From an uncultured Acidobacteriota bacterium (GTDB lineage: Bacteria > Acidobacteriota > UBA6911): DNA of 64,000 nt. Shown in pieces: positions 2 to 50,021 of the stretch. The DNA lies in NCBI GenBank assembly GCA_963827655.1, contig CAWHCF010000044.1, forward strand, positions 96,001 to 160,000, given 5' to 3'. Within the stretch, counting starts at the first letter, position 1, and every line of letters begins with the position of its first letter. The notes under the pieces were generated by a model. It ran no database searches and was not told where the DNA came from. It saw nothing but the letters and a program-made list of their open reading frames with translations. The position numbers and the translations under genes were made by a program.

Positions 2-1657
2 TTTTACGAACAACCGTGGATCAAGTTCGGGCGTCTGATGGAGACCTACCTCGCTTTCGCTCCCCGGGGCTTTCAGTCCTTCCGCCAGGCCGCGCCGGTC
101 TGGGCCCGCCACAAGCTGCGTCTGTCGCAGGAAATAAAATCGCGACTGGGACCGAAGTTCCGAGGCCGCTTCTGTTTTGCCCGGCATCACGAATCCCATG
201 CGGCAAGCGCTTTCTTCCCCTCCCCCTTCGAAGAGGCGACTATCCTCACGCTGGACGCCGTTGGCGAATGGGCGACAAGCTCGATCGGCGTCGGTCGCGG
301 AAACCGACTTACCCTCACCCACGAGCTGCATTTCCCTCACTCGCTGGGAATGCTCTACTCGGCCTTCACTTACTACACGGGCTTCAAGGTCAATTCCGGC
401 GAATACAAGCTGATGGGCCTGGCGCCTTATGGCAAGCCGCAATACGTCGATGTGATTCTCGAGAAAATCGTCCGGATCGCCGATGATGGCTCCCTCTGGC
501 TCGACATGGACTACTTCAACTACTGCCAGGGTCTGACGATGACCTCGGACAAATTTCATAATCTCTTCGGGGGGCCGCCGCGCAAACCGGATAGCATGCT
601 TACTCAGAAGGACATGGACCTGGCCGCGTCCATACAGGTTGTCTGTGAAGAGGTAGTCCTCCGCAACGCCCGGCACGCGCATCAGCTGACGGGGATGCGG
701 AACCTGGTCATGGCGGGCGGCGTAGCGCTGAATTGTGTCGCTAATGGCCGGATTCTACGCGAGGGTCCCTTCGAGAAAATCTGGGTCCAGCCGGCTGCGG
801 GAGATGCGGGAGGAGCCCTCGGCGCGGCCCTGCTGACATGGCACCAACTGCTCGGAAAATCGCGACAACCCAAGCCGCAAGACAGTCAGGGGGGGTCCCT
901 TCTAGGGCCGGCCTTCACCAATGATGAGATCGCCCTTTTTCTTGACTCGGTCGGTGCCCACTACGACTACCTTGGCGACGAAAGCAGCTTGATCGATCGC
1001 GTGGGCCAGCTGTTAGCTCAAGAAAAGATCATCGGCTTCTTCCAGGGACGTATGGAGTTCGGACCTCGCGCCCTGGGATCCCGCAGCATCATAGGCGATG
1101 CTCGCTCCCCCCGGATGCAGCAAGACATGAACTTGAAAATAAAGTTCCGGGAATCGTTCCGGCCGTTTGCTCCGTCGGTGCTGCGTGAATTCGCCGACAC
1201 GCTGTTTACACTCCGTCCGAACGAGGAGAGTCCTTATATGTTGTTCGTCGCACCGGTTCGTGAAGGCGTGAGAAAGCCCCTGAACCCTGAGGACCTCGAG
1301 CGAATGCAGGACCCCGATTTGAGAGTTCGAGTCTCGGTGCCGCGATCGAGCGTCCCGGCGGTAACCCACGTCGACTATTCTGCAAGAATCCAGACCCTCG
1401 ATCCGGAACGTCACGGTCGCTTCTACCGCCTGGTGCGACGGTTTTACGAACTGACCGGGTGTCCTGTAGTCGTCAATACAAGCTTCAACATACGGGGTGA
1501 GCCCATCGTTTGCACGCCCGACCAGGCGTTTCGCTGCTTCATGGCCACAGATATGGACTGCCTGGTTCTGGAGAACTTCGTTCTTATGAAAGACACTCAA
1601 CCCGCAGGCCTGCTGCAGGACGCCGAGGCCTATAAGGCACAGTATTCCCCGGACTAG
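2..1657 (+). CDS. Carbamoyltransferase, NodU/CmcH/SxtI family (5'-truncated by window edge), copy 1
   Basis: Frame is open from base 2 (FYEQPWIKFGRLMETYL...). Motifs HHESHAASAF, DAVGEW, SGEYKLMGLAPYG, AGGVALNC, GRMEFGPRALG, KFRESFRPFAP, NTSFNIRGEPIV. Confidence 0.95.
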   Translation, partial: FYEQPWIKFGRLMETYLAFAPRGFQSFRQAAPVWARHKLRLSQEIKSRLGPKFRGRFCFARHHESHAASAFFPSPFEEATILTLDAVGEWATSSIGVGRGNRLTLTHELHFPHSLGMLYSAFTYYTGFKVNSGEYKLMGLAPYGKPQYVDVILEKIVRIADDGSLWLDMDYFNYCQGLTMTSDKFHNLFGGPPRKPDSMLTQKDMDLAASIQVVCEEVVLRNARHAHQLTGMRNLVMAGGVALNCVANGRILREGPFEKIWVQPAAGDAGGALGAALLTWHQLLGKSRQPKPQDSQGGSLLGPAFTNDEIALFLDSVGAHYDYLGDESSLIDRVGQLLAQEKIIGFFQGRMEFGPRALGSRSIIGDARSPRMQQDMNLKIKFRESFRPFAPSVLREFADTLFTLRPNEESPYMLFVAPVREGVRKPLNPEDLERMQDPDLRVRVSVPRSSVPAVTHVDYSARIQTLDPERHGRFYRLVRRFYELTGCPVVVNTSFNIRGEPIVCTPDQAFRCFMATDMDCLVLENFVLMKDTQPAGLLQDAEAYKAQYSPD

Positions 1658-1661
1658 AGTT

Positions 1662-2228
1662 ATGTTTTCACTCATCCTTCCTCCCGCGCGACGTTATTCC
1701 ATTCTGATCGGTTTCTGGCTCGCTCTCAGTCTTTTCGCTGGAATAACCCTCGGTGCTATTCTGTCGCTGTGGGTATCCCCGACGCTGATGACTCTCGGTC
1801 TGATTGCGGTTCCGGTCCTGGCTCTACCCGGACTGCTGTGGCCGCAGGTGGCGATTCTACCTTACGTGGTCTGGAATAAACTGGCGAGGGAGTTCGGGCG
1901 CTATTCGCGCGCGTGGTTGATGGCCATCTGCTTCTATGTGATTGTGGTGGCTGTAGGGCGAAGCGGAGCGTCACTCCAGCTTGCCCGTCCTGATTCAGGC
2001 CAATCGCTGTGGGTTCGCCGGCAAGATCCCTCTGGAGCCCGCAACGGCTTCGAACGGGTCGTCGCCGCGGATGAATCTTCCAAGAGCTGGATTCGCAACT
2101 TCCTCAAGTGGAGTGCGCGATCGAGCAATCTTTGGGCCTGCGGCGTGCTGCCGTTCTTAGTCCTGATCTCGGCTCTCGACCCCGAACAGGACAACACCGT
2201 CCCCAAAGATATCTACACGCTATTCTAA
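1662..2228 (+). CDS. Membrane protein, apparent SxtJ-SxtK(DUF5989) fusion
   Basis: Hydrophobic N-half resembles the SxtJ-like protein at 49447 (LWPQVAILPYVVWNKLA..FG...FY). C-terminus ends DIYTLF, like the small protein at 49869 (FIYTLF). Directly follows the carbamoyltransferase. Confidence 0.7.
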   Translation: MFSLILPPARRYSILIGFWLALSLFAGITLGAILSLWVSPTLMTLGLIAVPVLALPGLLWPQVAILPYVVWNKLAREFGRYSRAWLMAICFYVIVVAVGRSGASLQLARPDSGQSLWVRRQDPSGARNGFERVVAADESSKSWIRNFLKWSARSSNLWACGVLPFLVLISALDPEQDNTVPKDIYTLF

Positions 2229-2236
2229 GGTTTTCA

Positions 2237-3358
2237 GTGACTTCCATTCGCTCAGTTCTGGCCCTGATCGCCTCCCTGGCCGGTTTGCTTCTGGCGGCTC
2301 CAATTGTCGTGCTTGGTCTCCCCTTCTGGGCGGTAGCCTGGCTGACCAAGCGAATCACCGGATTGCTGGAACCGGAGATCGTGCTCTGGGACCAGCTCAT
2401 AAGATTCGACCCGACCTTCGGCTGGAAGCCGAAGGCGAACCTGAATACTCACTGCGTTTCAGAGTTGGGAGGCGAGGTCTTTCACGTAACGACCGATTCT
2501 GAGGGATGGCCGGGAGCGTCCACGATCGACGAGAGCTCAATCACGGTCTTCGGCGACTCCTTCGCTTTCGGTTACGGAGTGAACGCTGAGGCCTTGTTTT
2601 CCGAGGTCAATCCTAAACTCCGCGTCAAAGCCATCGGAGCTCCCGGCTACAACATGGTTCAGGAAGTGATGTGGATGGATCGATTGTCGTCCCATCTCAG
2701 AGGGAAGCTCGTCGTTTGGTTTATTTATGTTGGCAACGATCTGTACGAGAACCTGCAGCCAAACATGCAGGATTACCGAACGCCTTTTGTGCGCCGTGCC
2801 GGTTCGACCGGTGAGTGGCAGATCGTCACCAGCCATCTCAGCTCGTCGAGGTGGTGGCCGTATCACGTGAATGACAAGTTGAGGTCCGCTCAGAGATTCG
2901 CCGCAATCTTCGGGACATCCTTCTTGTCAGAGCGGGTCTATTCGGCCTGCGAGTTTCTGATCAGAAAAGGAAACAATATCTGTGCGCACGCCGGCGCCTC
3001 GCTGGCAGTCACTACAATACCCATCATAGATCAACTGAGCTTGAATGGCTGGAAACAGCGAATATCTGAGCTGGGATATCCGGAATCTCTCGACCTCAAC
3101 CAGCCGGACCGTAAAATCGCCGAAATCTGCTCGACGTTGGGAGTCCGCTTCGTCGCAGGAAAGGACCACCTCAATGCCCGGCATTTCATTCCGGCAGACG
3201 GTCATTGGAATGAAAAGGGGCATCAAAGAATAGCGGATCTGCTGGCCGAGCTTCATCAACAGCGGCACCCGGCGGCCCGGAACGATACTGATCCGGAACT
3301 GCGTCTCTCACACGCGCAAAAACGCCCGACGGGCACGTTTCAGTGGCGCACCGATTGA
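2237..3358 (+). CDS. SGNH/GDSL-family (AlgJ/AlgX-like) membrane-anchored acyltransferase/esterase
   Basis: N-terminal TM segment, VFGDSFAFGYGV (block I), GAPGY, GND, DGHWNEKGH (DxH). GTG start at 2237 inferred just after the upstream stop. Confidence 0.85.
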   Translation: MTSIRSVLALIASLAGLLLAAPIVVLGLPFWAVAWLTKRITGLLEPEIVLWDQLIRFDPTFGWKPKANLNTHCVSELGGEVFHVTTDSEGWPGASTIDESSITVFGDSFAFGYGVNAEALFSEVNPKLRVKAIGAPGYNMVQEVMWMDRLSSHLRGKLVVWFIYVGNDLYENLQPNMQDYRTPFVRRAGSTGEWQIVTSHLSSSRWWPYHVNDKLRSAQRFAAIFGTSFLSERVYSACEFLIRKGNNICAHAGASLAVTTIPIIDQLSLNGWKQRISELGYPESLDLNQPDRKIAEICSTLGVRFVAGKDHLNARHFIPADGHWNEKGHQRIADLLAELHQQRHPAARNDTDPELRLSHAQKRPTGTFQWRTD

Positions 3359-3697
3359 CTGAGACCAGGGGTTTCCACGTGGCTTCGAGTCTAAGTCACT
3401 GGCTGCATTTAGGCAAGTCGCGGGCATCGGTGTGTCAGGCGTCCTCGAATTTGCTGGCGCTTCATGGATCTTACCCCTGAGAACAAAACTCGAGAAAAAC
3501 AAAGTATGGATCTACGGCCAGAACGATTCGACGCACTGGTCCCACCCTGGCACGGCTTTTGCGGCAGAGACGATGGCGGAAGAACTCGTAAAGGTGATGG
3601 CCCAATAGCACAGGCGCCCCGTTCAGGTTTCACGCAAACGTCCTCCGGGCGCAACGTCTCATTGATTTCGTAATAATAACCATCGCTGGAGCTGATC

Positions 3698-4990
3698 ATG
3701 AACCAGGATAACACAGGGGAATCCGCGTTCGGCCGCTCGATCGGGCGAGGAACCTTCAGGTCTGCAACGCCTGATTCCCTCCAGTCTCTAGTTCTGATTA
3801 ATGTAGGCACATTTTTATTGTGTACATTGCTCGCTTTCCTCGCTGCAGAGCTCATGTTCCGTTGGTTTTCCCCGATGGTCCAAGAAGCCGGAGCTGGGCA
3901 TCGGCCAAGCAGGAACCCCGTCTTATTGCACGAACCCATACCCGGGCATTCAAATACGAATAGCGACGGTTTACCCGATCACGAATACTCGGTTGCGAAG
4001 CCGGCGGGCACAAAGCGAATCCTGGTCCTGGGCGACGACGTGGTCTCTGGATTTGGTGTTTCCCTGCCGGACACTCTTCCGAAAGGCCTTGAAGCCGCTT
4101 ACAAAGCCAATGCCGAGTCTGTCGAGGTGCTTAACTTCGGTGTTTCCGGGTACGATACCCAGCAGGAGATTGAATTCTTCAAAGCCAAGGGAATCAAATA
4201 CCGCCCGGACATCGTCGTCGTGGTCTACGTCATGAACGACAATCGCTATGCCTCTCAGGAGTTGAGAGATTTAAGCGACGTCAAATTTTTGGCCGTTCCC
4301 AGGCCGCCGAGTGCAAATCCCCTCAAACGAGGGGCAGCATCCTTGTTCCATTCTTCACGCTTCCTGCAGTTTCTCGGTGCTCAGTGTCATATTGAGAGAA
4401 AACTCCCATTTCTCCAGGATTACCCTCGGTTGATCGACTACGTGGAGGAAAAGAATCTTCGAGAGCGGGACTCATCCGACAGCAAGTACGCTCAACTGGA
4501 AACCCAGGTTCAAGTCCGCGCCGAAGAGATTGGAACCACGCCGGACGCGCTCGAGTTCTCCATCCACGCGCTGGGGTTCCGGCATAGTGAGACCCTCTAC
4601 CAGTCCCATTGGAATGCCTCCTACCAGGCATTGACCAGACTGAAGGCTTTATCCGACGAGTACTCGTTCCAGGTTGTGGTCGTAGTCTTGCCTATCATGT
4701 ACCAAATGGACCGGTATCCGCTAAAGCCTGCGCATGACTTTTTTCGAAGCAATTTTGAATCACTCGGTTTCCAGACCGTCGACCTGCTCGAAATATGCAA
4801 ACATCTCTACAGCGTCTACGGATACTCGGCGGTCTCGCCGGACGGCATTCATTTAACGCCTTTCGCCGTGAAGAAAGTAGCCGGATACCTGTACAATCGG
4901 ATCCCCCTCGAGCGCCCGTTTCGCCCCGGGCGGGACGAGTCTCTCCTCGTGCACTCCCCCGGGCTCGGCCGCCAGAGCGCATTTCACTGA
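3698..4990 (+). CDS. SGNH/GDSL-fold protein with non-canonical block I (GDD instead of GDS)
   Basis: TM anchor (LAAELMFRWF), RILVLGDDVVSGFGV, VLNFGVSGY, MND, DGIHLT. Confidence 0.8.
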   Translation: MNQDNTGESAFGRSIGRGTFRSATPDSLQSLVLINVGTFLLCTLLAFLAAELMFRWFSPMVQEAGAGHRPSRNPVLLHEPIPGHSNTNSDGLPDHEYSVAKPAGTKRILVLGDDVVSGFGVSLPDTLPKGLEAAYKANAESVEVLNFGVSGYDTQQEIEFFKAKGIKYRPDIVVVVYVMNDNRYASQELRDLSDVKFLAVPRPPSANPLKRGAASLFHSSRFLQFLGAQCHIERKLPFLQDYPRLIDYVEEKNLRERDSSDSKYAQLETQVQVRAEEIGTTPDALEFSIHALGFRHSETLYQSHWNASYQALTRLKALSDEYSFQVVVVVLPIMYQMDRYPLKPAHDFFRSNFESLGFQTVDLLEICKHLYSVYGYSAVSPDGIHLTPFAVKKVAGYLYNRIPLERPFRPGRDESLLVHSPGLGRQSAFH

Positions 4991-5200
4991 GCGATCTCTA
5001 GCGCCGGCCTTCGCTGACCCCCCTTCCCTCGAACAGCAACCTCTGTGAGCTAAATGCCGCTATCAAGAAATCATCCTCGAGCGTCAGGGTAGAGTTCTTG
5101 TTCGGGCCGGGTCTTGCTGGAGATCGCGCCCTGCGACTGCTCGAGCTGTCGGGCGAAATCCATTTCATGCATCCAATGATATGAGCTTTAATTGTCATCT

Positions 5201-6307
5201 ATGCAGAATCATCCTCCGATTAAATTGATCGCCGTTGGTGATATTTGTCCTGGTGATCACAACTGCATGGGTTTTGGCACGGGAACGCTGATGAGGTCCC
5301 GTGGGCCATCATTCCCATTGCAACACGTGACGCACATGTTGCGCGAGGGCGACATCGTTTTCGGCAACTGCGAAGGGGTGCTCTCGAATGTTGGTGCAGA
5401 CCACAGAAACATCGACACCATGGAATTTCGGGGCATGCCAGAATTCGCAACCGCTCTTCGCAATTCTGGTTTTACCGTTCTGACGGTGGCAAATAACCAC
5501 GCTGGCGAACACGGGAGGGAAGCGCTATTTGACACCATCAACAATTTGCAATCGGCTGGTATCAAGGTCATCGGTCTGCGCGACGAGAACCGCACCGCTG
5601 TACCGCTGATACAAGAGATCAACGGCATTCGGATTGGCTGGCTGGCGTATACGTGGATTGTCTCTAAAAATACTAGCCAGGACCGCGCGCTACTATCGTG
5701 GACAAGGGGCAACGAGGTATCTACCGAAATCGCAACACTTCGTCCCAAGGTCGATTTTCTGATCGTTACTGCCCATTGGGGACGTGAGATCATTAGGGTC
5801 CCACCACAGAATGTGATCGATGCCGCTCACGCCATGGCGGAAGCGGGTGCCGACCTGGTGCTCGGACATCATCCGCATATGCTTCAAGGAATCGAACGTC
5901 ATGGCAGGTGTGTCATCGTCTACAGCCTCGGCGACTTTGTATTCGATGACTGGCTATATTGGTTTCGCGAGAGGGCTCTTTTTCGTTGCACGATCGAGGC
6001 GGGCAAGGCCCATAACCCCGAGTTCATCCCGCTGATGAGTAACCGACAGTTTCAGGTCGCTCCCGCTACAAAGGCCCAGAGAACTCGCATCTTAAGAAAA
6101 ATCGACGCGAGTACTCGCGCCATAACCGACCAGAGACTGGCTCACTTGCGAGATGAAGCTAAAGCCAAGCAGCTTGAGGCAAGGCGAAAGCGCCTCTTTT
6201 GGGGAGCCCGAGTCCTGTTCCTTACTGCCAATATTGGACGAATGGGGCCACGCATCGCCTACCAGAAGCTCTGCCGTCATTTCCCGCTGCCTTACGTAGG
6301 TAACTGA
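5201..6307 (+). CDS. CapA/PgsA-family metallophosphoesterase-fold protein, copy 1
   Basis: AVGD, GNCEG, ANNH, HWG, GHHPH and YSLGDF motifs typical of the PGA_cap family. Confidence 0.9.
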   Translation: MQNHPPIKLIAVGDICPGDHNCMGFGTGTLMRSRGPSFPLQHVTHMLREGDIVFGNCEGVLSNVGADHRNIDTMEFRGMPEFATALRNSGFTVLTVANNHAGEHGREALFDTINNLQSAGIKVIGLRDENRTAVPLIQEINGIRIGWLAYTWIVSKNTSQDRALLSWTRGNEVSTEIATLRPKVDFLIVTAHWGREIIRVPPQNVIDAAHAMAEAGADLVLGHHPHMLQGIERHGRCVIVYSLGDFVFDDWLYWFRERALFRCTIEAGKAHNPEFIPLMSNRQFQVAPATKAQRTRILRKIDASTRAITDQRLAHLRDEAKAKQLEARRKRLFWGARVLFLTANIGRMGPRIAYQKLCRHFPLPYVGN

Positions 6308-7367: not shown

Positions 7368-7520
7368 CGGAACACATGTCTGACTGCAATGGACCTCATT
7401 ACCGCGCTCATTCTCCCAGTCTGCGGCTCCGGTCTAACAGAAACCGGTCCGACGATTTGCCCGACGTTGCATGCTGAACCCCTATCGGTTGATCATCTGC
7501 GACTGAAAGGGAGTCTACCC

Positions 7521-8618
7521 ATGCAGATCACGAATATAACTGCTGACCGACGCGAAGACTGGAATGCATTTGTAGCGCGAGAACCATCTTTTGCTCTCTT
7601 ACAATCTTGGAAATGGGGCGAACTCAAAGAAAAGTTGGGCTGGAAGGTTTTTCGAATTGCAGCAGAGGAGGATGGGCAAATTCTGGCTGGCGCTCAGATG
7701 CTTGTTAGGTCTATGCCGCTAATACCGTTGGCCAGTATAGCCTATATCCCTCGAGGTCCTTTAGGCTGCTGGTTGGATGACACAATCAAACCTCAACTGT
7801 TATCCGAGTTCCATCGCATCGCTAAAAATCATCGAGCCGTCTTTCTAAAAATTGAGCCGTCAATGCCAAATGGTCCGGATGTCAATCAGGCGTTGGAACA
7901 GCACCATTTCCAGCCCAGTTTCTATGGCAATCACTCCCGGGCTACTATCATATTGGATTTGAGGCAAGATCTGGATGATGTGTTGAAGCAAATGCGTAGG
8001 AAGACCCGTCAGTACATCAGGCTAGCAACTCAAAGAGGTGTTGTTGCTCGTGAAGGCACCGCAGAAGACTTGCCGGCTTTTTATGATCTGATGAAAATAA
8101 CTGGTAAACGAGCCTCATTCTCTCCTCGCACCTACGATTCCTATAAACTCGAATGGCAGACATTTAAAGAAAACAACCAAGCCATATTACTCATGGCATA
8201 CAAGGACGATCGGTTGTTGGCTGGGCGCATGATCTTTCGCTTTGGCACTCATGCCGCGGAATTTTACGCCGGTTCGTTAGATGAGTATACCGATTTGCAC
8301 CCAAACTATTTACTCGCTTGGGAAGCCATAAAATGGGCCAAGGCCCAAGGTTGTCATAGTTACGACTTGTGGGGTATTCCTCAGGAAGTTGGTCAGGCAG
8401 TATATGATGGGGGAGACCTCCCTACGTCAAATCGCCGAGATGGTCTATGGGGTGTGTACCAATTCAAACGAGGTCTCGGTAAGCGAGTAGTGTTTTATGC
8501 CAAAACGTGTGATAGCGTATATTCACCACTACTATACTGGATGTTGCATAAAGCATGGCCATTGTTTAAAAGAAATGTCCTCCGAATCCTACTGCGCAAC
8601 CGCTCCAATACGGGGTAG
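7521..8618 (+). CDS. FemABX-family (aminoacyl-tRNA-dependent) peptidyltransferase, tandem GNAT fold
   Basis: LLQSWKWGELK, AYIPRGP, FLKIEP, KTRQYIRLA, PNYLLAWEAIKWAK, YDLWG, GVYQFKRGLG. AAAGGGAG RBS upstream. Confidence 0.9.
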   Translation: MQITNITADRREDWNAFVAREPSFALLQSWKWGELKEKLGWKVFRIAAEEDGQILAGAQMLVRSMPLIPLASIAYIPRGPLGCWLDDTIKPQLLSEFHRIAKNHRAVFLKIEPSMPNGPDVNQALEQHHFQPSFYGNHSRATIILDLRQDLDDVLKQMRRKTRQYIRLATQRGVVAREGTAEDLPAFYDLMKITGKRASFSPRTYDSYKLEWQTFKENNQAILLMAYKDDRLLAGRMIFRFGTHAAEFYAGSLDEYTDLHPNYLLAWEAIKWAKAQGCHSYDLWGIPQEVGQAVYDGGDLPTSNRRDGLWGVYQFKRGLGKRVVFYAKTCDSVYSPLLYWMLHKAWPLFKRNVLRILLRNRSNTG

Positions 8619-20673: not shown

Positions 20674-22133
20674 ATGATTTACGACTGGAAAATGGAGCTC
20701 TACTGGCGCCTGCCGGTTTACCTGCAGGAGGCAGGAATGAGCCTTTATGCAGGCCGCCTCGAGCGGCTCTACTACGGCCCCGGATTCGAAGAGTGGCGCC
20801 GGCAGTGCCAGAAGTGGCAGAACTGGTCCCGCACGGACGCGGAAACCTGGCAGAGCGACCAACTTCGTTCGGTCGTGGCACTCGCTGCGACTCGCGTCCC
20901 CTACTACCGCGAACAATGGAAGAACCTGGATTACAAATCGGTACGGTCGGCAGCCGACCTCCGCATCTTGCCGCGTTTGGACAAACAGTCGATACGTCTG
21001 AACGAGCAGGCATTCCTGGTCGAGGGACTGAATCCAAAATCGCTCTGGATGGAGAAGACCAGCGGCACCACCGGGACTTCTCTGCGAATTTACTGGCCTA
21101 TGTCCATGCTGCCAAAGTTCTGGGCCGTGATGGAAGTGATGGTCCGAAATATCGCCGGCGTAGGACAGGATATTCCACGCGCCGTAATGGGGGGCCGGCC
21201 CATTGTTCGAGGCAGCGCCGGGCAACCCCCTTTCTGGCGCTTCAACCGCCGATGGCGGCAACTGTACCTGTCGAGCTATCACGTGTCTCCGGACACCGCC
21301 CAGGGCTACATCGGGGCCCTTCACCAATACGGTTCCCAATGGATGACCGGGTACGGCTCGGCCATTGCCGCCCTCGACAGAAAGCGCTCTGGGTGCGGCC
21401 ATTCAACCTTTTCGACTTGGTAACGTGATTGTGAGCGGTGACACGCTTCTTCCCGGGATGCGCCTCAGCATCGAACGCTTCTTTCAGTCGAAGTGTTTCG
21501 ACCACTATGGGCAGTGCGAGGGAGTCGCCATGGCTATGGAGTGTCCCAACGGCCAAATGCATGTCATTCCTGCCATCGGCATCCTGGAGATTTTGCGAGA
21601 GGATGGCACGCCCTGTGTTGCCGGCGAGACCGGCGAAATGGTCGCCACCGGTCTTCTGAACGACGCGATGCCTCTGATTCGCTACCGGCTGGGAGATTAT
21701 GCCGCCTGGGCCGAGACTCAGAACTGCGAGTGCGGCAATCCCCAACCCATCATCACGAATCTGGAAGGACGAGTGGATGATTATCTCGTCGCGCGCGATG
21801 GACGGAAAATCGGACGGCTGTCGACGGCGGTGAAACGAAGTCCCACGATCCATTCGGCCCAGATCGTGCAGGACGAACCAGGGCATGCGTTCCTGCTGGT
21901 GCGCCCGGGAGAAGGCTATCGGTCCGCAGATGCCGTTGCCGTTCGTGATGACATTCAGGAAAGGATTGGCGCGTTCTCCATCGAGATCGTGGAAGTTTCT
22001 GAAATTCCCAAGACGCGCCAGGGTAAGACTTCTCTGGTCGTGCGTCTTGCAGATCGGCCGGGAACACGGGAAATCTACGAGCCAAGTGCTCAACCGCGCG
22101 ACGAGCGACGCCGGATGGTCCACGCCGTGCTAA
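20674..22133 (+). CDS. Phenylacetate-CoA ligase-like / CapK-family adenylating enzyme (frameshifted near 21380 and 22080)
   Basis: VPYYR, LPRLDK, KTSGTTG P-loop, DHYGQCE, MPLIRYRLGD, EGRVDD, IPKTRQGK. Confidence 0.87.
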
Positions 22134-23299
22134 CGACCAACCCGTCATCCCGTACAGCTGAGGCCCCGTCAAAGCGTCGATACCGTGTTCTGGTCTTTTC
22201 GGTAATTGCGCTGGTCTTCGGTACTTCGGTTTCCCTGCTCCTGGCAGAGTTTGCGGTTCGCCTTTTCAATCCTCAAACACTGACGTCGGACGTTGTCGAG
22301 TGGGATCCCGACGTCGACTACCGCTTGCGGCCGAACGCGCGGGGGCGGATGGTCTCGCCGGAATTCTCGGCAGAAATCCGCGTGAATTCTCTGGGATTTC
22401 GGGGTCCGGAAATCTCTCCGGTGAAGAAACCGGGGGTTCGCAGGGTTCTGTTCCTGGGCGATTCCTTCATGTTCGGGGCCGGACTCAAGGAGCACGAAAC
22501 GCTACCCTATGCGGTCAGCCGCGAGTTGGAGCGGAGACACGCCGGCGATTTTGAGGCCATCAATGGCGGGCGTATACGGCTACCAAACCGCCAATGAGTT
22601 AGAATTCTTCACGAAGTTCGGAGTTCCACTCCACCCCGATATTGTCGTGATTCTGGTCATGACCCACGACATGGTTCAGAACACAGACTGGTATGAGTGG
22701 ACCGGCGACGGGCAGCTGAAGAGAAGACCCTTTACCAGCCAATACACGCAAAGCCGGGCTATAACGCGTTATTTGCCCGGGGCTTCCTGGCTCCGAGAAC
22801 ATAGCCACCTGTTCAAATTCGTCGGCACGAGGGTTCTCCCAACAGTCACTGCGGGCGAAAACCCTAAATCGGAACTCGCCGGTGGTTCCCCGCGAGCCAA
22901 GCCCGCAACCGGTCAAACACGACCAATTCTCGCCTGAGTTCTACCAGGAGGAGAGCGGGGCTTTTCGGGTTACCACCGAGTTGCTGGCCAGGCTTGTCGA
23001 CGTCTGCAAGGAGAACGGCGCCAAGTGCATTCTCTTGACACTTGGGGGGACAGCGGACGAAAACATGGCGGGAGGGCTTTCGCCCAGGGAAATGCTGCCG
23101 CACGAGCAGCTGATTGCAGCCGGATTCAAAGTGGGCTTTTCGGACGCCCTGGCCCTGCCTACGATTCTCGCCGGTTACAGGGGAAATGAAAATCTGTTCT
23201 TCCCGAAGGATCTCCATTGGACGGCGCACAGCGACGAGTTTCGTCGCTCCCGCGGTTGCGGACGCAATCCTCCGGGTCTCCGGTCAGGATCATCCATGA
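22115..23299 (+). CDS. SGNH/GDSL-family membrane-anchored protein (frameshifted)
   Basis: TM LLLAEFAVRLF, RVNSLGFRG, FLGDSFMFG, INGG-VYGY, FFPKDLHWT, spread over several frames. Confidence 0.82.
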
Positions 23300-24355: not shown

Positions 24356-25266
24356 ATGGAAACTACACCAATGAAAGTCCAGGAAACCGAGCTGAGAGTG
24401 CCGGGGCTGGAAGCAGCTGCCGCCCGGCACGCAAGCCGGACCCGATATTCCGCCCATCCGCATCGAAGCGCGCCAAGGTTGGGTATCGCTCAAGCTGCGT
24501 GAGGTCTGGGAGTATCGCGAGCTGTTGTTTTTCCTCACCTGGCGAAACATCCAGGTACGATACAAGCAAACGGCGCTGGGCGTGACCTGGGCCATCATCC
24601 AGCCTCTCTTCACGATGGCGGTGTTCAGCCTGTTTTTCGGCCGGCTGGCCAAGGTCCCGTCCGATGGCATTCCTTATCCGATCTTTGCCTTCGCCGCCCT
24701 GGTGCCGTGGACGTTCTTTTCCAACGGATTGAGCCAGTCCTCCAACAGCCTGGTGGGCAACTCCAATCTGATAAAGAAGGTGTACTTTCCTCGCCTCACT
24801 ATCCCGGTATCCACGGTGCTCTCAGGGGTGGTGGATTTCATGCTGGCATTCGTCATGGTGCTGGGGATGATGTTCTACTACCGCATCGTACCCACGGCCA
24901 ATGTGCTCTGGATTCCACTGTTGCTGCTGCTCGCGCTGGTGACCTCCCTCGGTGTCGGGCTATGGCTGTCGGCGCTGAACGTGCAGTACCGCGACGTCCA
25001 GCACGCCGTCCCCTTCCTGACCCAGTTCTGGATGTTCAGCACGCCTATCGCTTACCCCAGCAGCCTGCTGTCCGAACCCTGGCGCACTATATACGCGACT
25101 GAATCCGATGGTCGGCGTGGTGGAAGGCTTCCGGTGGGCGCTCCTGGGAACCCAACCCGCTCCCGGAGCGATCCTTGTCGCCTCGTCCCTGGTGGCGGTG
25201 CTGGTCCTCGTCGGCGGCGCGTTTTATTTCCGCCGCATGGAAAAGACCTTTGCGGACGTTATTTGA
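24356..25266 (+). CDS. wzm: Polysaccharide ABC transporter permease (frameshifted)
   Basis: VWEYRELLFFLTWRNIQVRYKQTALG, LIKKVYFPR, NPM...FRW, FRRMEKTFADVI. Confidence 0.92.
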
Positions 25267-25302
25267 GTCTTCGCGCTCAACCATTTCAACGGATCAATAA
25301 TC

Positions 25303-26574
25303 ATGAGTGATGCTGTTATTCGCATGGAAGGACTGGGAAAGGTCTTCCGCATCGGCGCCCGGCACGAAGGTTACAAGACGCTGCGCGACACGCTGTCCAA
25401 TGCCTGCACTGCGCCTTTCCGCCGGATCCGCACGACGCTCCAGGGTTCGAGAATCAAGCCCTCCAGTGACGAAAACACGATCTGGGCCTTGAAAGACCTC
25501 TCGTGCGAGGTGAAGCGCGGGGAGGTGGTAGGAATCATCGGGCGCAATGGAGCGGGCAAGAGCACGTTGTTGAAAATCCTTTCTCGCATCACGGAGCCGA
25601 CCGTCGGATTTGCCGAGATTCGCGGCCGAGTGAGGTCGCTGCTCGAGGTCGGCACCGGCTTTCACCAGGAGCTGACCGGCCGGGAAAACGTCTACCTCAA
25701 TGGCGCGATCCTGGGCATGAAAAAGTCGGAGACCGACCGAAAATTCGACGAGATCGTGGCCTTCTCCGAGATAGAAAAGTTCATTGATACGCCCGTGAAG
25801 CATTACTCCAGCGGCATGTACCTGCGACTGGCTTTTGCCGTCGCCGCCCACCTGGAGCCGGAGATTCTGCTGGTGGACGAGGTCCTGGCCGTCGGCGATG
25901 CAGCGTTCCGGAACAAGTGCGTGGGGAAAATGGGAGAGGTGGCGCAGAAAGGGCGAACCGTGATCTTCGTGAGTCACAACATGGGGGTGATTCAGTCTCT
26001 TTGCAACACGGGAATCCTCCTGGAAGACGGTAAGATCACTTTTAAAGGACCGACCCAGCAGGCTGTAACGAAGTATCTCGGATCGGTCGAGCAACTGCGA
26101 ACCAAGCCGATCGAGACGCGGCAAGATCGCATTGGCGGCAATACCTTCAGGTTCAAACGCGTCCAGTTTCTCAATCCTGAAACCATGGCGCCCTGGAGGA
26201 CCCTGGTCTCGGGTCAACGCGTGATTGTCCGGCTCGAATATGAATGCTTATCCAGCCAGACCCTCGAAGATGTTGGGATCGGTATCGCATTTCATACCGC
26301 CAACAACATCCACCTCTTTGCCTGCAGGAACCGAGCCGTTGGAGTAACACTTAAGGTTCACCCGGGAGAGGGTTACACGGATTGCATCATTCCAAAGTGG
26401 CCGCTCAAAGCCGGGCGCTACTCCTACCATCTCTATGCCGACCGAAGGGATACGCCGCTGGATTACGTCACCGACGCGGGTTCTCTGGATATAGAAGCCA
26501 ACGACTACTATGGCACGGGGTATCTTCCGGCTCCGGGCCAACCCGGAGTTCTGATCGACTATGCCTGGGAATAA
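25303..26574 (+). CDS. wzt: Polysaccharide ABC transporter ATP-binding protein with C-terminal Wzt_C domain
   Basis: GRNGAGKST, YSSGM, LLVDEVLAVGD, VSH, and a C-terminal beta-rich extension (PLKAGRY). Confidence 0.95.
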   Translation: MSDAVIRMEGLGKVFRIGARHEGYKTLRDTLSNACTAPFRRIRTTLQGSRIKPSSDENTIWALKDLSCEVKRGEVVGIIGRNGAGKSTLLKILSRITEPTVGFAEIRGRVRSLLEVGTGFHQELTGRENVYLNGAILGMKKSETDRKFDEIVAFSEIEKFIDTPVKHYSSGMYLRLAFAVAAHLEPEILLVDEVLAVGDAAFRNKCVGKMGEVAQKGRTVIFVSHNMGVIQSLCNTGILLEDGKITFKGPTQQAVTKYLGSVEQLRTKPIETRQDRIGGNTFRFKRVQFLNPETMAPWRTLVSGQRVIVRLEYECLSSQTLEDVGIGIAFHTANNIHLFACRNRAVGVTLKVHPGEGYTDCIIPKWPLKAGRYSYHLYADRRDTPLDYVTDAGSLDIEANDYYGTGYLPAPGQPGVLIDYAWE

Positions 26575-45657: not shown

Positions 45658-47427
<1,770 letters not shown>

Positions 47428-47574: not shown

Positions 47575-49426
47575 ATGTCAACTTACATCCTGGGTATTTC
47601 GGCCTATTACCATGATAGCGCCGCGTGCCTGGTGCAAGACGGCCGGATCGTGGCGGCCGCGCAGGAAGAGCGGTTTACACGGAAGAAACACGACTCGCGG
47701 TTCCCGCATCAGGCATTGAGTTATTGCCTGCGCGAGGGTGGTGTTTCGCTGACGGATCTGCGCTACGTCGTTTTTTATGACAAGCCGCTGCTCAAATTCG
47801 ATCGTCTCCTGGAAACCTATGTGGCTTTCTCTCCGCGGGGGATTCGTTCTTACCTGGCGGCCATGCCGGTATGGATCAAGGAGAAGATGTTGCTGAAGAG
47901 CCTGCTGCAGAAGGAGCTCGCGGCGGTCTCCGGGGGCTTGAAAAAGTCCGCGCTTCCACCCATGTTGTTCACCGAGCACCACGAATCTCATGCGGCGTCT
48001 GCCTTCTACCCGTCACCCTTCGACCAGGCCGCGGTTCTTTGCATGGATGGAGTCGGAGAGTGGGCTACCACGTCTGCCTGGCTCGGTGACAAGAACCGCC
48101 TGACGCCTCTGTGGGAGATTTCCTTCCCTCATTCGCTGGGACTTCTGTATTCCGCCTTTACTTACTATACCGGGTTCAAAGTGAACTCGGGTGAGTACAA
48201 AGTAATGGGTCTCGCTCCCTACGGGAAGCCGAAGTATGTCCAGGCCATTTATGATCATCTACTCGACCTGAAGCCCGATGGAACGTTCCGGCTGAACATG
48301 GGCTACTTCAATTACTGCACCGGGCTGACCATGACGAACGGTAAGTTTGATGCTCTGTTCGATGGTCCTCCTCGCCGTCCCGAGAGCCCCTTGACGCAGC
48401 GCGAAATGGATCTCGCTCGCTCGATCCAGGAGATCACCGAGGAGGTCATGCTTCGCCTGGCCCGGACCCTCCAGCGCGAGACGGGCGCGAAAAACCTGTG
48501 CATGGCGGGGGGTGTGGCGCTCAACTGCGTCGGAAACGGCAGAATCCTGCGCGAAGGTCCGTTCAAAGGGCTATGGATCCAGGCGGCGGCCGGCGATGCG
48601 GGAGGGGCCGTGGGCGCTGCCCTCGCTGCATGGCACGAATACGATGGGAATTCCCAGAAACCCCGGCGATTCCATAGACGCGATGCAGGGAAGCTTCCTG
48701 GGCCCATCCTACACCAACGAAGAGATTGAACAGTTCCTTCGAAAAAAGGACGCTCCGTACGAACGGTTGAATGACGACGCGCTCTTCGAGCGGGTGGCGG
48801 ATGAGCTGGCCTCAGGCAAAGTCGTGGGTTGGCTTCAAGGCCGCATGGAGTTCGGTCCTCGCGCCCTGGGTGGACGCAGCATTCTGGGCGATGCTCGCAA
48901 CACCAAGATGCAATCGGTGATGAACCTCAAGATAAAATATCGCGAATCTTTCCGGCCGTTTGCTCCCTCGGTTCTACGGGAGCGGGTGTCGAAATATTTC
49001 GACCTCGACACCGACAGCCCCTACATGCTTCTGGTTGCCCCGGTGCTGGAGCAGCGCCGGACCTCAATGACCGAGGAACAAAAGACCCGGTGGGGAATCG
49101 AGCTATTGAATGTGCCTAAATCGGATATTCCCGCCGTCACACATGTGGATTATTCGGCGCGCATTCAAACCGTTCATGAGGAGACCAATCCGCGTTATTA
49201 CCGGTTGATCAAAGCGTTTGAGGCGAAGACCGGTTGCGGCGTCATAGTCAATACCTCATTCAACGTCCGGGGAGAACCTATCGTTTGCTCGCCTGAAGAT
49301 GCCTATCGCTGTTTCATGCGCACAGAGATGGACGTTCTTGTCCTCGAGAACTGTGTTCTGCGCAAGGCCGACCAAAAGCCTCTGGCCGGAGACACCGACT
49401 GGAAAAAAGAGTTCGAGCTTGATTAG
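47575..49426 (+). CDS. Carbamoyltransferase, NodU/CmcH/SxtI family, copy 2 (frameshift near 48650)
   Basis: ILGISAYYHDSAA, AQEERF.R.KH, HHESHAAS, SGEYK.MGLAPYG, MEFGPRALG, NTSFNVRGEP. Confidence 0.95.
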
Positions 49427-49446
49427 CGGTAAGCGAGGGTAGCGGA

Positions 49447-49842
49447 TTGCAGGAAAAAGTAAGCAATAAACAATTACGCCAGTTCGGCTTGCTGGTAGGC
49501 GGCATTTTTGCGGTCATCGGCCTGTGGCCTATGGTGCTGCGCGGACAGAATCCGCGGTTGTGGTCCCTCGTTCCGGCGGTGCTGCTGATACTTCCGGCTC
49601 TGGTGTATCCTCGCAGTCTGCGATTCGTACACCGCGGTTGGATGGTTATCGGCGAGGTACTGGGATGGATCAATACCAGAATCATCCTGGGTACAATCTT
49701 TTACACCCTGGTGACGGCGACGGGGCTGATAATGCGCCTTTCCGGGAAGGATCCGATGAATCGGAGATTAGATCCCCGGACCGACTCGTATCGGCACACG
49801 CGCGAACCGCGTCCCGCGTCACACATGAAACATCAATTCTAA
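49447..49842 (+). CDS. SxtJ-family membrane protein
   Basis: LRQFG, W..IG..LG.IN..IIL..IFY, GKDPM, ends QF. Follows the carbamoyltransferase. Confidence 0.88.
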   Translation: MQEKVSNKQLRQFGLLVGGIFAVIGLWPMVLRGQNPRLWSLVPAVLLILPALVYPRSLRFVHRGWMVIGEVLGWINTRIILGTIFYTLVTATGLIMRLSGKDPMNRRLDPRTDSYRHTREPRPASHMKHQF

Positions 49843-49868
49843 ACGAACTGTTGAAGGAGTGCCTGATA

Positions 49869-50021
49869 ATGGGCGAATTCATTCTGGAACTGTGGAGCTT
49901 CATGAAAGAGCGGAAGAAATTCTGGCTCCTGCCGATCATCATCTGCCTGATGCTGTTGGGTGGATTGATATTCTTTACCTCAGGTTCCGCCGTAGCTCCT
50001 TTTATCTATACGCTTTTTTAG
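49869..50021 (+). CDS. DUF5989/SxtK small membrane protein (50 aa)
   Basis: MGEFILELWSFMKERKKFWLLPII...GSAVAPFIYTLF. AAGGAG RBS upstream. Confidence 0.92.
   Translation: MGEFILELWSFMKERKKFWLLPIIICLMLLGGLIFFTSGSAVAPFIYTLF

What the first reader, a model, noticed from the sequence alone, without database searches (positions are those of the whole stretch)
2..4990. Candidate new system: MBOAT-free, tyrosine-peptide shuttle for carbamoylating a surface glycan
Seen: carbamoyltransferase, then a membrane protein ending in DIYTLF, then two membrane-anchored SGNH proteins. A second module at 47575-50021 ends in a 50-aa peptide terminating in FIYTLF. Established: in Dlt/Alg/Pat envelope acylation pathways a C-terminal hexapeptide of roughly F-I-Y-x-x-F (DltX, or the tail of AlgI/PatA-type MBOATs) carries the acyl group on its Tyr to an SGNH-fold transferase (DltD/AlgJ/PatB). 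SxtJ and SxtK/DUF5989 have no assigned function that I know of. Inference: here a cytoplasmic NodU-type enzyme replaces the MBOAT, the SxtK Tyr carries the carbamoyl group (with SxtJ as membrane partner), and an SGNH protein deposits it on exported glycan. No MBOAT gene is present in the window.
Basis: partly seen in the sequence, partly recalled or inferred. Interest (0 to 1): 0.88.

Follow-up and report, generated by a model that had tools for sequence, protein, structure and literature searches.

The report
Tyrosine-tailed microprotein in carbamoylation module
Two gene sets in a large surface-sugar gene cluster pair a carbamoyl-adding enzyme with a small membrane protein whose unchanging tyrosine tail matches the acyl-carrying tail of known cell-wall acylation systems, which suggests an undescribed route for decorating sugars outside the cell.

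Summary
Module 1 has a TobZ/NodU-type carbamoyltransferase (2-1657), a 188-aa membrane protein ending in DIYTLF (1662-2228) and two membrane-anchored SGNH proteins. Module 2 has a carbamoyltransferase, SxtJ and a 50-aa DUF5989 peptide ending in FIYTLF. IYTLF occurs only twice in the six-frame translation of the 8.2-Mb genome, both times before a stop codon. The 188-aa protein is a rare natural SxtJ + SxtK-like fusion. The Tyr is kept in 146 of 150 DUF5989 cluster representatives and in 24 of 24 fusion-family members. The triad carbamoyltransferase-SxtJ-DUF5989 is near-obligate (74 and 78 of 82 loci). One SGNH family lies within 6 kb in 48 of 82 loci. It also tracks DUF5989 genome-wide: 116 of 123 genomes with DUF5989 against 11 of 178 without. 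MBOAT does not track it (65 of 123 against 55 of 178; none in this genome). One member of this SGNH family is fused to an MBOAT ending in FIYFQF. A DltX/PatA-like tyrosine relay carrying carbamoyl is therefore the best reading (about 0.5). No covalent intermediate is shown, and nothing explains how a cytoplasmic enzyme would load a tail predicted to be periplasmic. I found no paper that makes this link.

The parts
2..1657 (+). CT1, an ATP/carbamoyl-phosphate O-carbamoyltransferase of the TobZ/NodU/GdmN type. Its 5' end lies 197 nt upstream of the window (617 aa in all). It ends in YKAQYSPD, which fits the C-terminal tail motif of SxtJ/K-linked carbamoyltransferases.
   Evidence: Pfam Carbam_trans_N and _C. 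PDB relatives GdmN 3e-88 and TobZ 7e-71. Tail motif.
1662..2228 (+). JK*, a 188-aa natural fusion of a divergent SxtJ-like part (three long helices) with an SxtK-like part: an amphipathic helix, one membrane helix and a flexible tail ending in DIYTLF.
   Evidence: BLASTP to window SxtJ: 25% over 114 aa, E 2e-4. Local SxtJ profile. The A3 profile hits canonical SxtJ next to DUF5989 in two other genomes at 3e-9 and 3e-7. There are 23 homologues, all ending [IT]YTL[FY]. AF2 model: helices 10-37, 40-59, 61-100, 143-153, 157-172; tail pLDDT below 50.
2211..2225 (+). C-terminal pentapeptide IYTLF of JK* (Tyr185 codon at 2214-2216), the proposed carrier tyrosine.
   Evidence: Y185, T186 and L187 are invariant in 24 of 24 family members, while the 15 residues before them vary. 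One of only two IYTLF in the genome.
2237..3358 (+). SG1, a membrane-anchored SGNH protein (numbering from the longest ORF, 2108). It has Ser151 (GDS), Asp211 and Asp364/His366. The probable GTG start lies 9 nt after the JK* stop. The N-terminus MTSIRS plus a hydrophobic stretch looks like a signal anchor.
3698..4990 (+). SG2, a paralogue of the same SGNH family with one N-terminal membrane helix. Asp114 replaces the nucleophile Ser (GDD); the block V Asp/His pair is present. It may not be catalytic.
21365..22597 (+). Third member of the same SGNH family in the window (no Pfam hit), with a fragment at 22509-22937.
   Evidence: Local family profile: 1e-21 and 1.5e-9. No Pfam hit.
47575..49426 (+). 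CT2, a carbamoyltransferase of module 2, read in two frames (47575-48729 and 48512-49426). The frame changes in the run cagaaaccccgg near 48653. It ends in DWKKEFELD.
   Evidence: Contigs of four public runs (about 97% alike) all lack one base at 48653, so the frame is whole in relatives.
49447..49842 (+). SxtJ-family membrane protein (131 aa).
   Evidence: PF19588, 71 bits against cut-off 24.4.
49869..50021 (+). DUF5989/SxtK microprotein (50 aa). It has an amphipathic N-terminus with RKK, one membrane helix and the tail APFIYTLF (Tyr47 codon at 50007-50009).
   Evidence: PF19451, 90.5 bits against 27. Invariant W9 R15 K16 W19 P22 A43 P44 F45 Y47 T48 F50 in 26 diverse members.

Best explanation
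The window carries two copies of a conserved, MBOAT-independent module for carbamoylating envelope polymers, and I think it works as a tyrosine relay. Step 1: the cytoplasmic TobZ/NodU-type enzyme makes carbamoyl-AMP from carbamoyl phosphate and ATP. This follows from homology; the chemistry of the TobZ family is recalled, not tested here. Step 2: the enzyme sits on the membrane on SxtJ plus SxtK (here also fused as JK*), probably through its conserved C-terminal octapeptide. This is inferred from gene linkage and the conserved tail. Step 3: the carbamoyl group is placed on the hydroxyl of the invariant Tyr in the SxtK tail (A-P-F-I-Y-T-L-F). This is inferred, and how the group crosses the membrane is unknown. 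Step 4: the flexible tail presents O-carbamoyl-Tyr to the Ser nucleophile of a membrane-anchored SGNH protein (SG1 Ser151), as DltX does for DltD and the PatA tail does for PatB. This is inferred by analogy. Step 5: the SGNH protein passes the carbamoyl group to a hydroxyl of the exported polysaccharide made by the surrounding Wza/Wzc and Wzm/Wzt cluster. This is inferred from context. SG2, which lacks the Ser, would be a non-catalytic or acceptor-binding paralogue.
For: (a) The motif and its place. Both tails end at the exact C-terminus, after a membrane helix preceded by positive charges (RKK). This is the layout described for DltX and for the FXYXXF tail of PatA-type MBOATs, and FIYANF is the Neisseria PatA hexapeptide (PMC12148441, passages read).
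(b) Invariance of the Tyr. It is kept in 146 of 150 best 50%-identity representatives. Of these, 119 end in the motif and 27 carry it followed by unconserved read-through. The other 4 lose it in what look like frameshifts. It is kept in 24 of 24 JK* family members. It is kept in 11 of the 12 most divergent HMM-found copies of the phylum sample.
(c) The triad. A carbamoyltransferase lies within 6 kb of DUF5989 in 74 of 82 places and SxtJ in 78 of 82, across many phyla. 64 of 69 full-length linked carbamoyltransferases end in [WY]xxx[FYLVI]x[LPA]D. The SxtJ/K-less CT3 of this genome does not.
(d) The SGNH link. The same SGNH family lies within 6 kb in 48 of 82 places (30 of 47 with full flanks). 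In 301 genomes of the phylum it is present (E<=1e-17) in 116 of 123 genomes with DUF5989 and in 11 of 178 without. MBOAT, used as a comparison, is in 65 of 123 against 55 of 178.
(e) A natural fusion. One protein joins a membrane helix, an SGNH domain of this family and an MBOAT ending in FIYFQF (L083:4088-6640). This ties the family to tyrosine-tail donors and argues for a periplasmic SGNH domain. The SGNH next to DUF5989 in G117 passes Pfam's AlgX model (41.3 bits against 26.5).
(f) Family catalytic residues. Ser is present in 73 of 82 members and His in 74 of 82.
(g) Published clusters. sxtI-sxtJ-sxtK-sxtL (sxtL a GDSL lipase) stand together in the table of PMC2679770. [quoted passage not shown]
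(h) Co-fold of SG1 (41-405) with JK*: weak support only. The median ipSAE was 0.52 (runs 0.52, 0.65, 0.02) and the best of 3 controls was 0.00. The mark was reached by 116 of 157 solved complexes and 2 of 215 mismatched pairs. At 0.60 or under, however, it was reached by only 18 of those 157 and by both mismatches that passed. The runs agree in at least 0% of contacts, and the partner's pLDDT is at least 57.
(i) Recalled chemistry: O-aryl carbamates carbamoylate serine hydrolases, so an O-carbamoyl-Tyr is a plausible donor.
Against: No covalent intermediate has been seen. By the positive-inside rule the tail is periplasmic, while the enzyme has no export signal and needs ATP. SxtJ plus SxtK give about four membrane helices, with no MBOAT-like tunnel and no carrier arm known.

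SGNH is missing beside the triad in 34 of 82 places. The 109 flanking proteins of those 33 loci show no other consistent partner.

In the phylum sample most strong SGNH matches lie far from DUF5989: only 9 to 12 of the 150 listed are within 3 to 20 kb. The family has many copies per genome, so part of the co-occurrence could reflect a shared envelope-rich lifestyle and shared descent. The E<=1e-17 cut was chosen after seeing the scores; at 1e-10 the contrast is 119 of 123 against 54 of 178. The SGNH profile was itself built from genes found near DUF5989.

Positive-inside counts do not settle the side of the SGNH domain: 24 N>C, 10 equal and 29 N<C among 63 single-helix members. SG2 lacks the nucleophile. 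DUF5989 shows no sequence match to any other Pfam family, DltX included, even at E<=10.

In toxin and peptide clusters the acceptor is a small molecule presumed to be cytoplasmic. The closest solved relative of the SGNH family is a hydrolase (CgnD), not a transferase.
Confidence: 0.5

Rival explanations
1. Membrane tether only. SxtJ and SxtK/JK* anchor or regulate the carbamoyltransferase at the inner face of the membrane. There it carbamoylates lipid-linked sugar intermediates directly (or, in toxin and peptide clusters, small molecules). The conserved tail serves folding, partner binding or sorting and never carries the group. The SGNH proteins are separate esterases, O-acetyl handlers or decarbamoylases, as was proposed for SxtL.
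For: TobZ-family enzymes act directly on their acceptors without carriers; GdmN, TobZ and a novobiocin enzyme are close solved relatives. The enzyme and the tail are predicted on opposite sides of the membrane. SGNH is absent beside 34 of 82 triads. SxtL is annotated as a decarbamoylase candidate (PMC2679770). The nearest solved SGNH relatives are hydrolases.
Against: It does not explain why the last eight residues are the most conserved part of the microprotein across phyla. It does not explain why they match the acyl-carrier motif of MBOAT tails in the same phylum, such as SPFIYFRF and FIYFQF. It does not explain the genome-wide tie to one SGNH family, nor that family's fusion to a tyrosine-tailed MBOAT. 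The same genome also has carbamoyltransferases that do without SxtJ/K.
Confidence: 0.3
2. Peptide precursor. DUF5989 is the substrate rather than a carrier. Its C-terminal residues are carbamoylated and cut off by the SGNH-fold protein, giving a small peptide-derived product or cofactor.
For: The closest solved relative of the SGNH family over its full length is CgnD (Foldseek E 1.7e-9, TM 0.61 by target length; profile E 4e-13). CgnD releases a C-terminal core peptide in the crocagin pathway, whose cluster also has a carbamoyltransferase (PMC10070186, passages). Small peptides with an invariant C-terminal Tyr serve as cofactor precursors elsewhere (PqqA and MftA; recalled).
Against: The whole 50-aa protein, membrane helix included, is conserved at 60-90% identity across phyla. 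It is fused to SxtJ in JK*. It sits in polysaccharide clusters. Several SGNH paralogues occur per genome. The tail equals the MBOAT carrier motif. No peptide exporter or further tailoring genes recur beside it.
Confidence: 0.07
3. Relic or artefact. Module 2 is a decaying copy (broken carbamoyltransferase), and the shared tail reflects common descent of two paralogous modules, with no present function.
For: CT2 is split into two frames in the window. Several other genes of the window are also split.
Against: Contigs from four public runs, about 97% alike, lack the extra base at 48653, so the gene is whole in close relatives. The families are under strong purifying selection in thousands of clusters.
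Confidence: 0.03

Closest known systems
DltX-DltB-DltD and PatA-PatB (MBOAT-SGNH acyl-tyrosine shuttles; PMC12148441)
   Same: Both have a C-terminal hexapeptide with an invariant Tyr at -4 and an aromatic last residue, placed at the exact C-terminus after a membrane helix. The carrier is a microprotein (DltX) or is fused to its membrane partner (PatA-type tail), and both forms occur here (SxtK alone; the JK* fusion). Both have a membrane-anchored SGNH partner with a Ser nucleophile.
   Different: There is no MBOAT: none in this genome, and none in 58 of 123 genomes with DUF5989. The donor enzyme is a soluble ATP-dependent carbamoyltransferase and the group is carbamoyl, not acyl. There is no detectable sequence relation to DltX. 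The membrane partner SxtJ is small and unrelated to MBOAT.
SxtI/SxtJ/SxtK/SxtL of saxitoxin clusters and the sxtJ,K,L-like genes of the suomilide cluster (PMC2679770, PMC10157211)
   Same: The Pfam families are the same (SxtJ PF19588; DUF5989 is the SxtK family). The gene set is also the same: carbamoyltransferase, SxtJ, SxtK and a GDSL/SGNH protein of about 420 aa.
   Different: Here the set sits in a polysaccharide export cluster rather than a natural-product cluster. Module 1 has SxtJ and SxtK fused and two SGNH genes. Whether SxtL belongs to the SGNH family defined here was not tested, because I had no SxtL sequence in hand.
TobZ, GdmN, NovN-type and NodU O-carbamoyltransferases
   Same: Both domains are present over the full length (E 3e-88 to 7e-71 against solved structures).
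   Different: Those enzymes act alone on soluble acceptors. CT1 and CT2 belong to the subgroup that is always next to SxtJ/K and ends in a conserved C-terminal octapeptide (64 of 69).
CgnD, crocagin pathway hydrolase (PDB 8a2n; PMC10070186)
   Same: It is the closest solved structure to SG1 and to the family profile over the full length, and it comes from a cluster that also has a carbamoyltransferase.
   Different: CgnD is soluble, was characterised as a slow leader peptidase, and shares 15-17% identity with SG1. No SxtJ/K is mentioned in that paper (0 occurrences of CgnJ/CgnK).
OatA (AT3-SGNH peptidoglycan O-acetyltransferase)
   Same: It is another relay in which a membrane domain loads an invariant Tyr that then donates to an SGNH domain (discussion of PMC12148441). 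This shows the Tyr-to-SGNH step is not tied to MBOAT.
   Different: It uses an AT3 membrane domain and acetyl-CoA. I saw no AT3 domain among the window genes scanned.

Membership tests
DUF5989 / SxtK (PF19451) | Match to the Pfam model above its curated cut-off, over the full length to the last residue | tested here: met
   Window 49869-50021: 90.5 bits against 27, profile positions 2-49 of 49. The JK* tail region (2096-2228) gives no Pfam hit even at E<=10, so JK* is not a member by this test.
SxtJ (PF19588) | Match to the Pfam model above its cut-off | tested here: met
   Window 49447-49842: 71 bits against 24.4. JK* has no Pfam hit. It is related by BLASTP (E 2e-4). A profile of its own family also finds canonical SxtJ next to DUF5989 (3e-9 and 3e-7). 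JK* is a distant relative, not a member by Pfam's cut-off.
TobZ/NodU/CmcH-type O-carbamoyltransferase | Kae1-like N-terminal and YrdC-like C-terminal domains in one chain | tested here: met
   CT1 has PF02543 at 330.9 bits and PF16861 at 228.5 bits, with full-length matches to GdmN and TobZ. CT2 has both domains but in two frames.
TobZ/NodU/CmcH-type O-carbamoyltransferase | Metal- and nucleotide-binding catalytic residues intact | not tested
   I did not map the catalytic residues onto CT1 or CT2.
SGNH hydrolase/transferase superfamily | SGNH fold | tested here: met
   SG1 model pLDDT 81.9. Foldseek finds CgnD at 1.7e-9, then many SGNH esterases, with PatB at rank 10 (1.5e-5). The family profile against the PDB finds 1yzf at 3e-20. 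SG2 was not modelled.
SGNH hydrolase/transferase superfamily | Block I Ser nucleophile and block V Asp-x-x-His | tested here: met
   SG1 has Ser151 and Asp364/His366. In the family, Ser is present in 73 of 82 and His in 74 of 82. SG2 does not meet the Ser criterion (Asp114, GDD).
MBOAT-SGNH acyl-tyrosine shuttle (Dlt/Pat/Alg type) | C-terminal FXYXXF with invariant Tyr, at the exact C-terminus after a membrane helix | tested here: met
   The module 2 peptide ends in FIYTLF. Tyr is kept in 146 of 150 representatives. JK* has DIYTLF, so the first F is not kept, but Y, T and L are invariant in 24 of 24.
MBOAT-SGNH acyl-tyrosine shuttle (Dlt/Pat/Alg type) | An MBOAT protein that loads the tyrosine | tested here: not met
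   No PF03062 match in the whole genome (90% complete). 58 of 123 genomes with DUF5989 have none. Only 1 of 139 DUF5989 places lies within 20 kb of a listed MBOAT match.
MBOAT-SGNH acyl-tyrosine shuttle (Dlt/Pat/Alg type) | A membrane-anchored SGNH partner encoded with the carrier | tested here: met
   SG1 starts 9 nt after JK*. The family lies within 6 kb in 48 of 82 places. Genome-level association: 116 of 123 against 11 of 178.
MBOAT-SGNH acyl-tyrosine shuttle (Dlt/Pat/Alg type) | Covalent acyl-Tyr intermediate and transfer to the SGNH Ser | not testable with these tools
   This needs mass spectrometry and enzyme assays.
DltX family | Sequence homology to DltX | tested here: not met
   hmmscan of five DUF5989 members, the JK* tail and one further copy at E<=10 gave no DltX model. 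The language-model atlas gave no usable hit. I had no DltX sequence for a profile-profile comparison.

The most novel reading that the evidence does not exclude
Carbamoyltransferase + SxtJ + SxtK + SGNH is a widespread fourth kind of tyrosine relay, beside DltB/DltX, MBOAT tails and AT3. It carries a carbamoyl group rather than an acyl group across the cytoplasmic membrane without any MBOAT. O-carbamoyl-Tyr on a 50-aa microprotein is the mobile intermediate. One donor triad may serve several acceptor-specific SGNH paralogues per genome. The same logic would give SxtJ/SxtK, and the GDSL gene that travels with them in published natural-product clusters, a role that has been open since 2008.
Probability: 0.45. 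Interest if true: 0.9.

Novelty: new variant of a known kind. Interest (0 to 1): 0.8.

Why it matters
DUF5989 is very common. It has more than 8,000 clusters at 90% identity and is found in 123 of 301 genomes sampled from this phylum. It also occurs in Nitrospira, Pelagibacteraceae, Trichodesmium, Microcoleus, Gemmatimonadota, Acidobacteriota and Bacteroidota. Yet it and SxtJ have no assigned function. The papers I read still say only that SxtI, J and K are 'hypothesised to work in conjunction' (2026 preprint).

If the relay reading is right, it explains how carbamoyl groups reach polymers outside the cytoplasm. It extends the acyl-tyrosine principle to a new chemistry and a new donor enzyme, and it shows that the Tyr-to-SGNH hand-off does not need an MBOAT. 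It also yields a simple, testable prediction: +43 Da on one tyrosine.

Tried and rejected
- I looked for natural fusions of DUF5989 with SxtJ or with the carbamoyltransferase. The long proteins and long open frames that hold DUF5989 are overlapping-frame artefacts or frameshifted reads. Only the divergent JK* family is a true fusion.
- A search for longer fused forms of the SGNH family gave 1 protein (YfhO + AlgX domains). It could not see the 850-aa fusion because of its length window.
- Positive-inside counting for the SGNH anchor was inconclusive.
- The JK* model's tail is disordered, so it gives no geometry.
- The atlas search with the microprotein gave no usable hit.
- Five genomes with the SGNH family but without DUF5989 were searched for the JK* type, and nothing rang. 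That search has no positive control and so shows nothing.
- The tail tally of the 81 genome loci (81 of 81 with Tyr) is set aside as circular, because those loci were found with the motif as a search pattern.
- I considered that the two IYTLF tails might be chance or low-complexity matches. I rejected this.

Full report
**What is there**

The window is G000:C44:96001-160000 of an 8.18-Mb, 53-contig genome that is 90% complete. Almost all genes lie on the + strand and form one very large polysaccharide locus.

Upstream of the window are a NusG-like factor, a Wza-type exporter and a Wzc-type co-polymerase/kinase. Inside the window are:
- glycosyltransferases;
- NeuB/CMP-sugar genes;
- a Wzm/Wzt ABC exporter (24525-26574);
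- methyltransferases;
- a sulfotransferase and a PAPS synthase;
- three AsnB-like amidotransferases;
- two CapA-like proteins;
- a FemAB-like protein.

The finding's genes open this locus directly after Wzc.

**Module 1**

CT1 (window 2-1657; 617 aa counting the 197 nt upstream) has both carbamoyltransferase domains. It matches solved GdmN, a novobiocin carbamoyltransferase and TobZ over its full length (3e-88 to 7e-71).

Four bases after its stop begins a 188-aa ORF (1662-2228) ending in ...DIYTLF. Pfam sees nothing in it. Three results show that its N-terminal two thirds are a divergent SxtJ:
- It aligns with the window's own SxtJ (25% over 114 aa, E 2e-4).
- It is found by a local SxtJ profile.
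- A profile of its own 24-member family finds canonical SxtJ genes next to DUF5989 in two other genomes (3e-9 and 3e-7).

Its last 45 residues repeat the build of SxtK: an amphipathic helix, one membrane helix and a tail (AF2 helices 143-153 and 157-172; tail pLDDT below 50). So it is a natural SxtJ-SxtK fusion, which I call JK*.

This fused form is rare. I found 23 homologues among 5.8 billion proteins, and only this genome among 301 of its phylum. All 24 members end in [IT]-Y-T-L-[FY] at the exact C-terminus. Y, T and L are invariant, while the 15 residues before them vary freely.

**The two SGNH proteins**

SG1 probably starts at GTG 2237, nine bases after the JK* stop. That gives MTSIRS followed by a long hydrophobic helix, which looks like a signal anchor.
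- Its model (pLDDT 81.9) has one long N-terminal helix and an SGNH fold.
- It carries Ser151, Asp211 and Asp364/His366.

SG2 (3698-4990) is a paralogue with one membrane helix. It has Asp where the nucleophile Ser should be.

A third family member lies at 21365-22597.

**Module 2**

CT2 (47575-49426) is 52% identical to CT1 in its C-terminal half. It changes frame in the run cagaaaccccgg near 48653. Contigs of four public runs, about 97% alike, all lack one base there. The gene is therefore whole in close relatives, and the break is an assembly error or a very recent change.

SxtJ (49447-49842) and DUF5989 (49869-50021, ending APFIYTLF) follow. Methyltransferases and a metallo-beta-lactamase-fold protein come next, with no SGNH.

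**Is the tail more than chance?**

IYTLF occurs exactly twice in the six-frame translation of the whole genome, both times directly before a stop and both beside a carbamoyltransferase.

**How conserved is the tyrosine?**

An exhaustive HMMER search found 3,155 cluster representatives at E<=0.001. Of the best 150:
- 119 end in the motif;
- 27 carry it followed by unconserved read-through;
- 4 lose it in what look like frameshifts.

In 26 diverse members the invariant residues are W9, R15, K16, W19, P22, A43, P44, F45, Y47, T48 and F50.

The loci were found with the motif as a pattern, so I set their tally aside. Instead I took the 12 weakest HMM-found copies of the phylum sample. Of these, 11 keep the Tyr and 10 end in F, although their N-terminal parts differ widely. 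The exception is a degenerate second copy in a genome that also has a normal one.

**Neighbourhoods**

I examined 80 genome loci from many phyla plus the two window modules. Within 6 kb of DUF5989:
- a carbamoyltransferase lies in 74 of 82 places;
- SxtJ lies in 78 of 82 places;
- a member of the SG1/SG2 family lies in 48 of 82 places (30 of 47 with at least 6 kb on both sides).

The SGNH genes often stand as tandem arrays directly after the microprotein.

The 33 loci without SGNH have mixed neighbours, with no MBOAT and no other recurrent partner (109 proteins).

Of 69 full-length linked carbamoyltransferases, 64 end in [WY]xxx[FYLVI]x[LPA]D, typically DWKKEFELD. CT1's YKAQYSPD fits this pattern. 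The third carbamoyltransferase of this genome (window 63653 onward) has no SxtJ/K and lacks it. I read this tail as a likely docking peptide, but that is inference.

**Genome-level association**

The same 301 genomes of the phylum were searched three times.
- DUF5989 is in 123 of them, and in 0 of 14 control genomes.
- The SGNH family profile matches at E<=1e-17 in 116 of the 123 genomes with DUF5989 and in 11 of the 178 without. At 1e-10 the figures are 119 and 54, and at 1e-30 they are 103 and 10.
- Four of the seven exceptions with DUF5989 are 55-88% complete.
- MBOAT is in 65 of 123 and 55 of 178, so 58 genomes with DUF5989 have none.

Four caveats apply:
- Related genomes are not independent.
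- I chose the 1e-17 cut after seeing the bimodal scores.
- The SGNH profile came from genes near DUF5989.
- The tallies include three unpublished genomes (G152, G049, G024), which I use only as counts.

Most strong SGNH matches are not next to DUF5989 (9-12 of the 150 listed), and many genomes hold several paralogues.

**A link to the known shuttles**

In G218 one 850-aa protein joins an N-terminal membrane helix, an SGNH domain of this family (1e-50; 9e-42 locally) and an MBOAT (76 bits) that ends in FIYFQF. Other MBOATs of the phylum end in SPFIYFRF, PFFYQGF and PYYYFQF. The microprotein's APFIYTLF therefore matches them back to the proline.

PatA's N-terminus is described as periplasmic (PMC12148441), so an SGNH domain fused before an MBOAT should also be periplasmic. 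The SGNH gene next to DUF5989 in G117 passes Pfam's AlgX model.

Against the PDB, the family profile matches generic SGNH esterases best. CgnD matches over the full length. AlgJ, AlgX and PatB match only around the His block.

**Mechanism**

I commit to the tyrosine relay at about 0.5. Its steps are marked as inferred in the Best explanation section.

The weakest step is loading. The enzyme needs ATP in the cytoplasm, while the tail should be outside: RKK precedes the helix in SxtK, and JK* has an arginine-rich linker before the helix and an acidic tail after it. I see no tunnel.

The co-fold of SG1 with JK* gave weak support only. The median ipSAE was 0.52 and the best of three controls was 0.00. 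The runs (0.52, 0.65, 0.02) agree in at least 0% of contacts, and the partner's pLDDT is at least 57. Passes at 0.60 or under were reached by only 18 of 157 solved complexes and by both mismatched pairs that passed.

**Literature**

I read passages, not whole papers, in every case.

| Paper | What the passages say |
|---|---|
| PMC12148441 | Sets out the FXYXXF acyl-tyrosine shuttle |
| PMC2679770 | Lists sxtI, sxtJ (unknown), sxtK (unknown) and sxtL (GDSL lipase, proposed decarbamoylation) one after another |
| PMC12300590 and a 2026 preprint | Still treat SxtI/J/K as a presumed complex |
| PMC10070186 | Describes CgnD |

Four searches looked for a paper that joins SxtJ/SxtK/DUF5989 with DltX, MBOAT or a tyrosine carrier, and none turned up:
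- 'DUF5989' gave 0 papers.
- carbamoyltransferase/SGNH/tyrosine/microprotein gave nothing relevant.
- 'acyl shuttle' + carbamoyl gave 0 papers.
- For SxtK/DltX/SxtJ/MBOAT/acyl-tyrosine, no paper held terms from both sides.

The library lacks most subscription papers, including the original DltX mechanism paper, which I did not see.

**Verdict**

The module is a widespread, conserved unit. The system works like an MBOAT-SGNH shuttle but is not a member of that system, because the defining MBOAT is absent.

Noticed in passing
window 48640-48670 (CT2); also 43754-44494/44205-45527 (AsnB-like), 36079-36867/37035-37616 (DUF4910), 50049: Several genes are split between frames. At 48653 and at 50049, contigs of four public runs (about 97% alike) lack one base relative to the window. 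This suggests single-base insertion errors in this assembly, or very recent mutations.
   Followed up: partly
window 63653-64000 (runs off the 3' end; L091:1653-3416): A third, more divergent carbamoyltransferase (587 aa) has no SxtJ/K beside it and lacks the C-terminal octapeptide. A fourth copy on contig C3 is broken into three frames. So the genome holds both carrier-linked and stand-alone carbamoyltransferases.
   Followed up: partly
C-termini of carbamoyltransferases in L003-L082; window 1634-1654 and 49400-49423: Carbamoyltransferases linked to SxtJ/K end in a conserved octapeptide, [WY]xxx[FYLVI]x[LPA]D (64 of 69; typically DWKKEFELD). It may be a docking tail for the membrane partners.
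   Followed up: partly
L083:4088-6640 (G218:C4): An 850-aa natural fusion of a membrane helix, an SGNH domain of the SG1/SG2 family and an MBOAT ending in FIYFQF.
   Followed up: yes
window 3698-4990 (SG2), residue 114: SG2 has GDD instead of GDS at block I. The nucleophile Ser is replaced by Asp, whereas 73 of 82 family members have Ser. It may be a pseudo-enzyme paralogue.
   Followed up: partly
window 21365-22597 and 22509-22937: A third member of the SGNH family, 19 kb from module 1, is invisible to Pfam. The own genome has at least 6 scored matches to the family profile out of 36 candidates.
   Followed up: no
SG1 model against PDB 8a2n: The closest solved structure to this SGNH family is CgnD of the crocagin pathway, a slow 'leader peptidase' from a cluster that also encodes a carbamoyltransferase. 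Whether CgnD has a carbamoyl-related role is an open thought.
   Followed up: no
window 45658-47427, 39932-40660, 5192-6307, 54105-55316, 7389-8618: The cluster also encodes a fused ATP-sulfurylase/APS-kinase, a sulfotransferase, two CapA-like proteins and a FemAB-like aminoacyl transferase. The polymer is therefore probably sulfated, methylated and aminoacylated as well as carbamoylated.
   Followed up: no
L066 (Trichodesmium erythraeum IMS101), L038, L043, L054, L055, L061, L078: In cyanobacteria, DUF5989 is followed by tandem arrays of three to five SGNH paralogues.
   Followed up: no
L096 (G250:C12:1161000-1161800): A degenerate second DUF5989-like copy ends in PFICTLV (Tyr replaced by Cys), in a genome that also has a canonical copy.
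   Followed up: no
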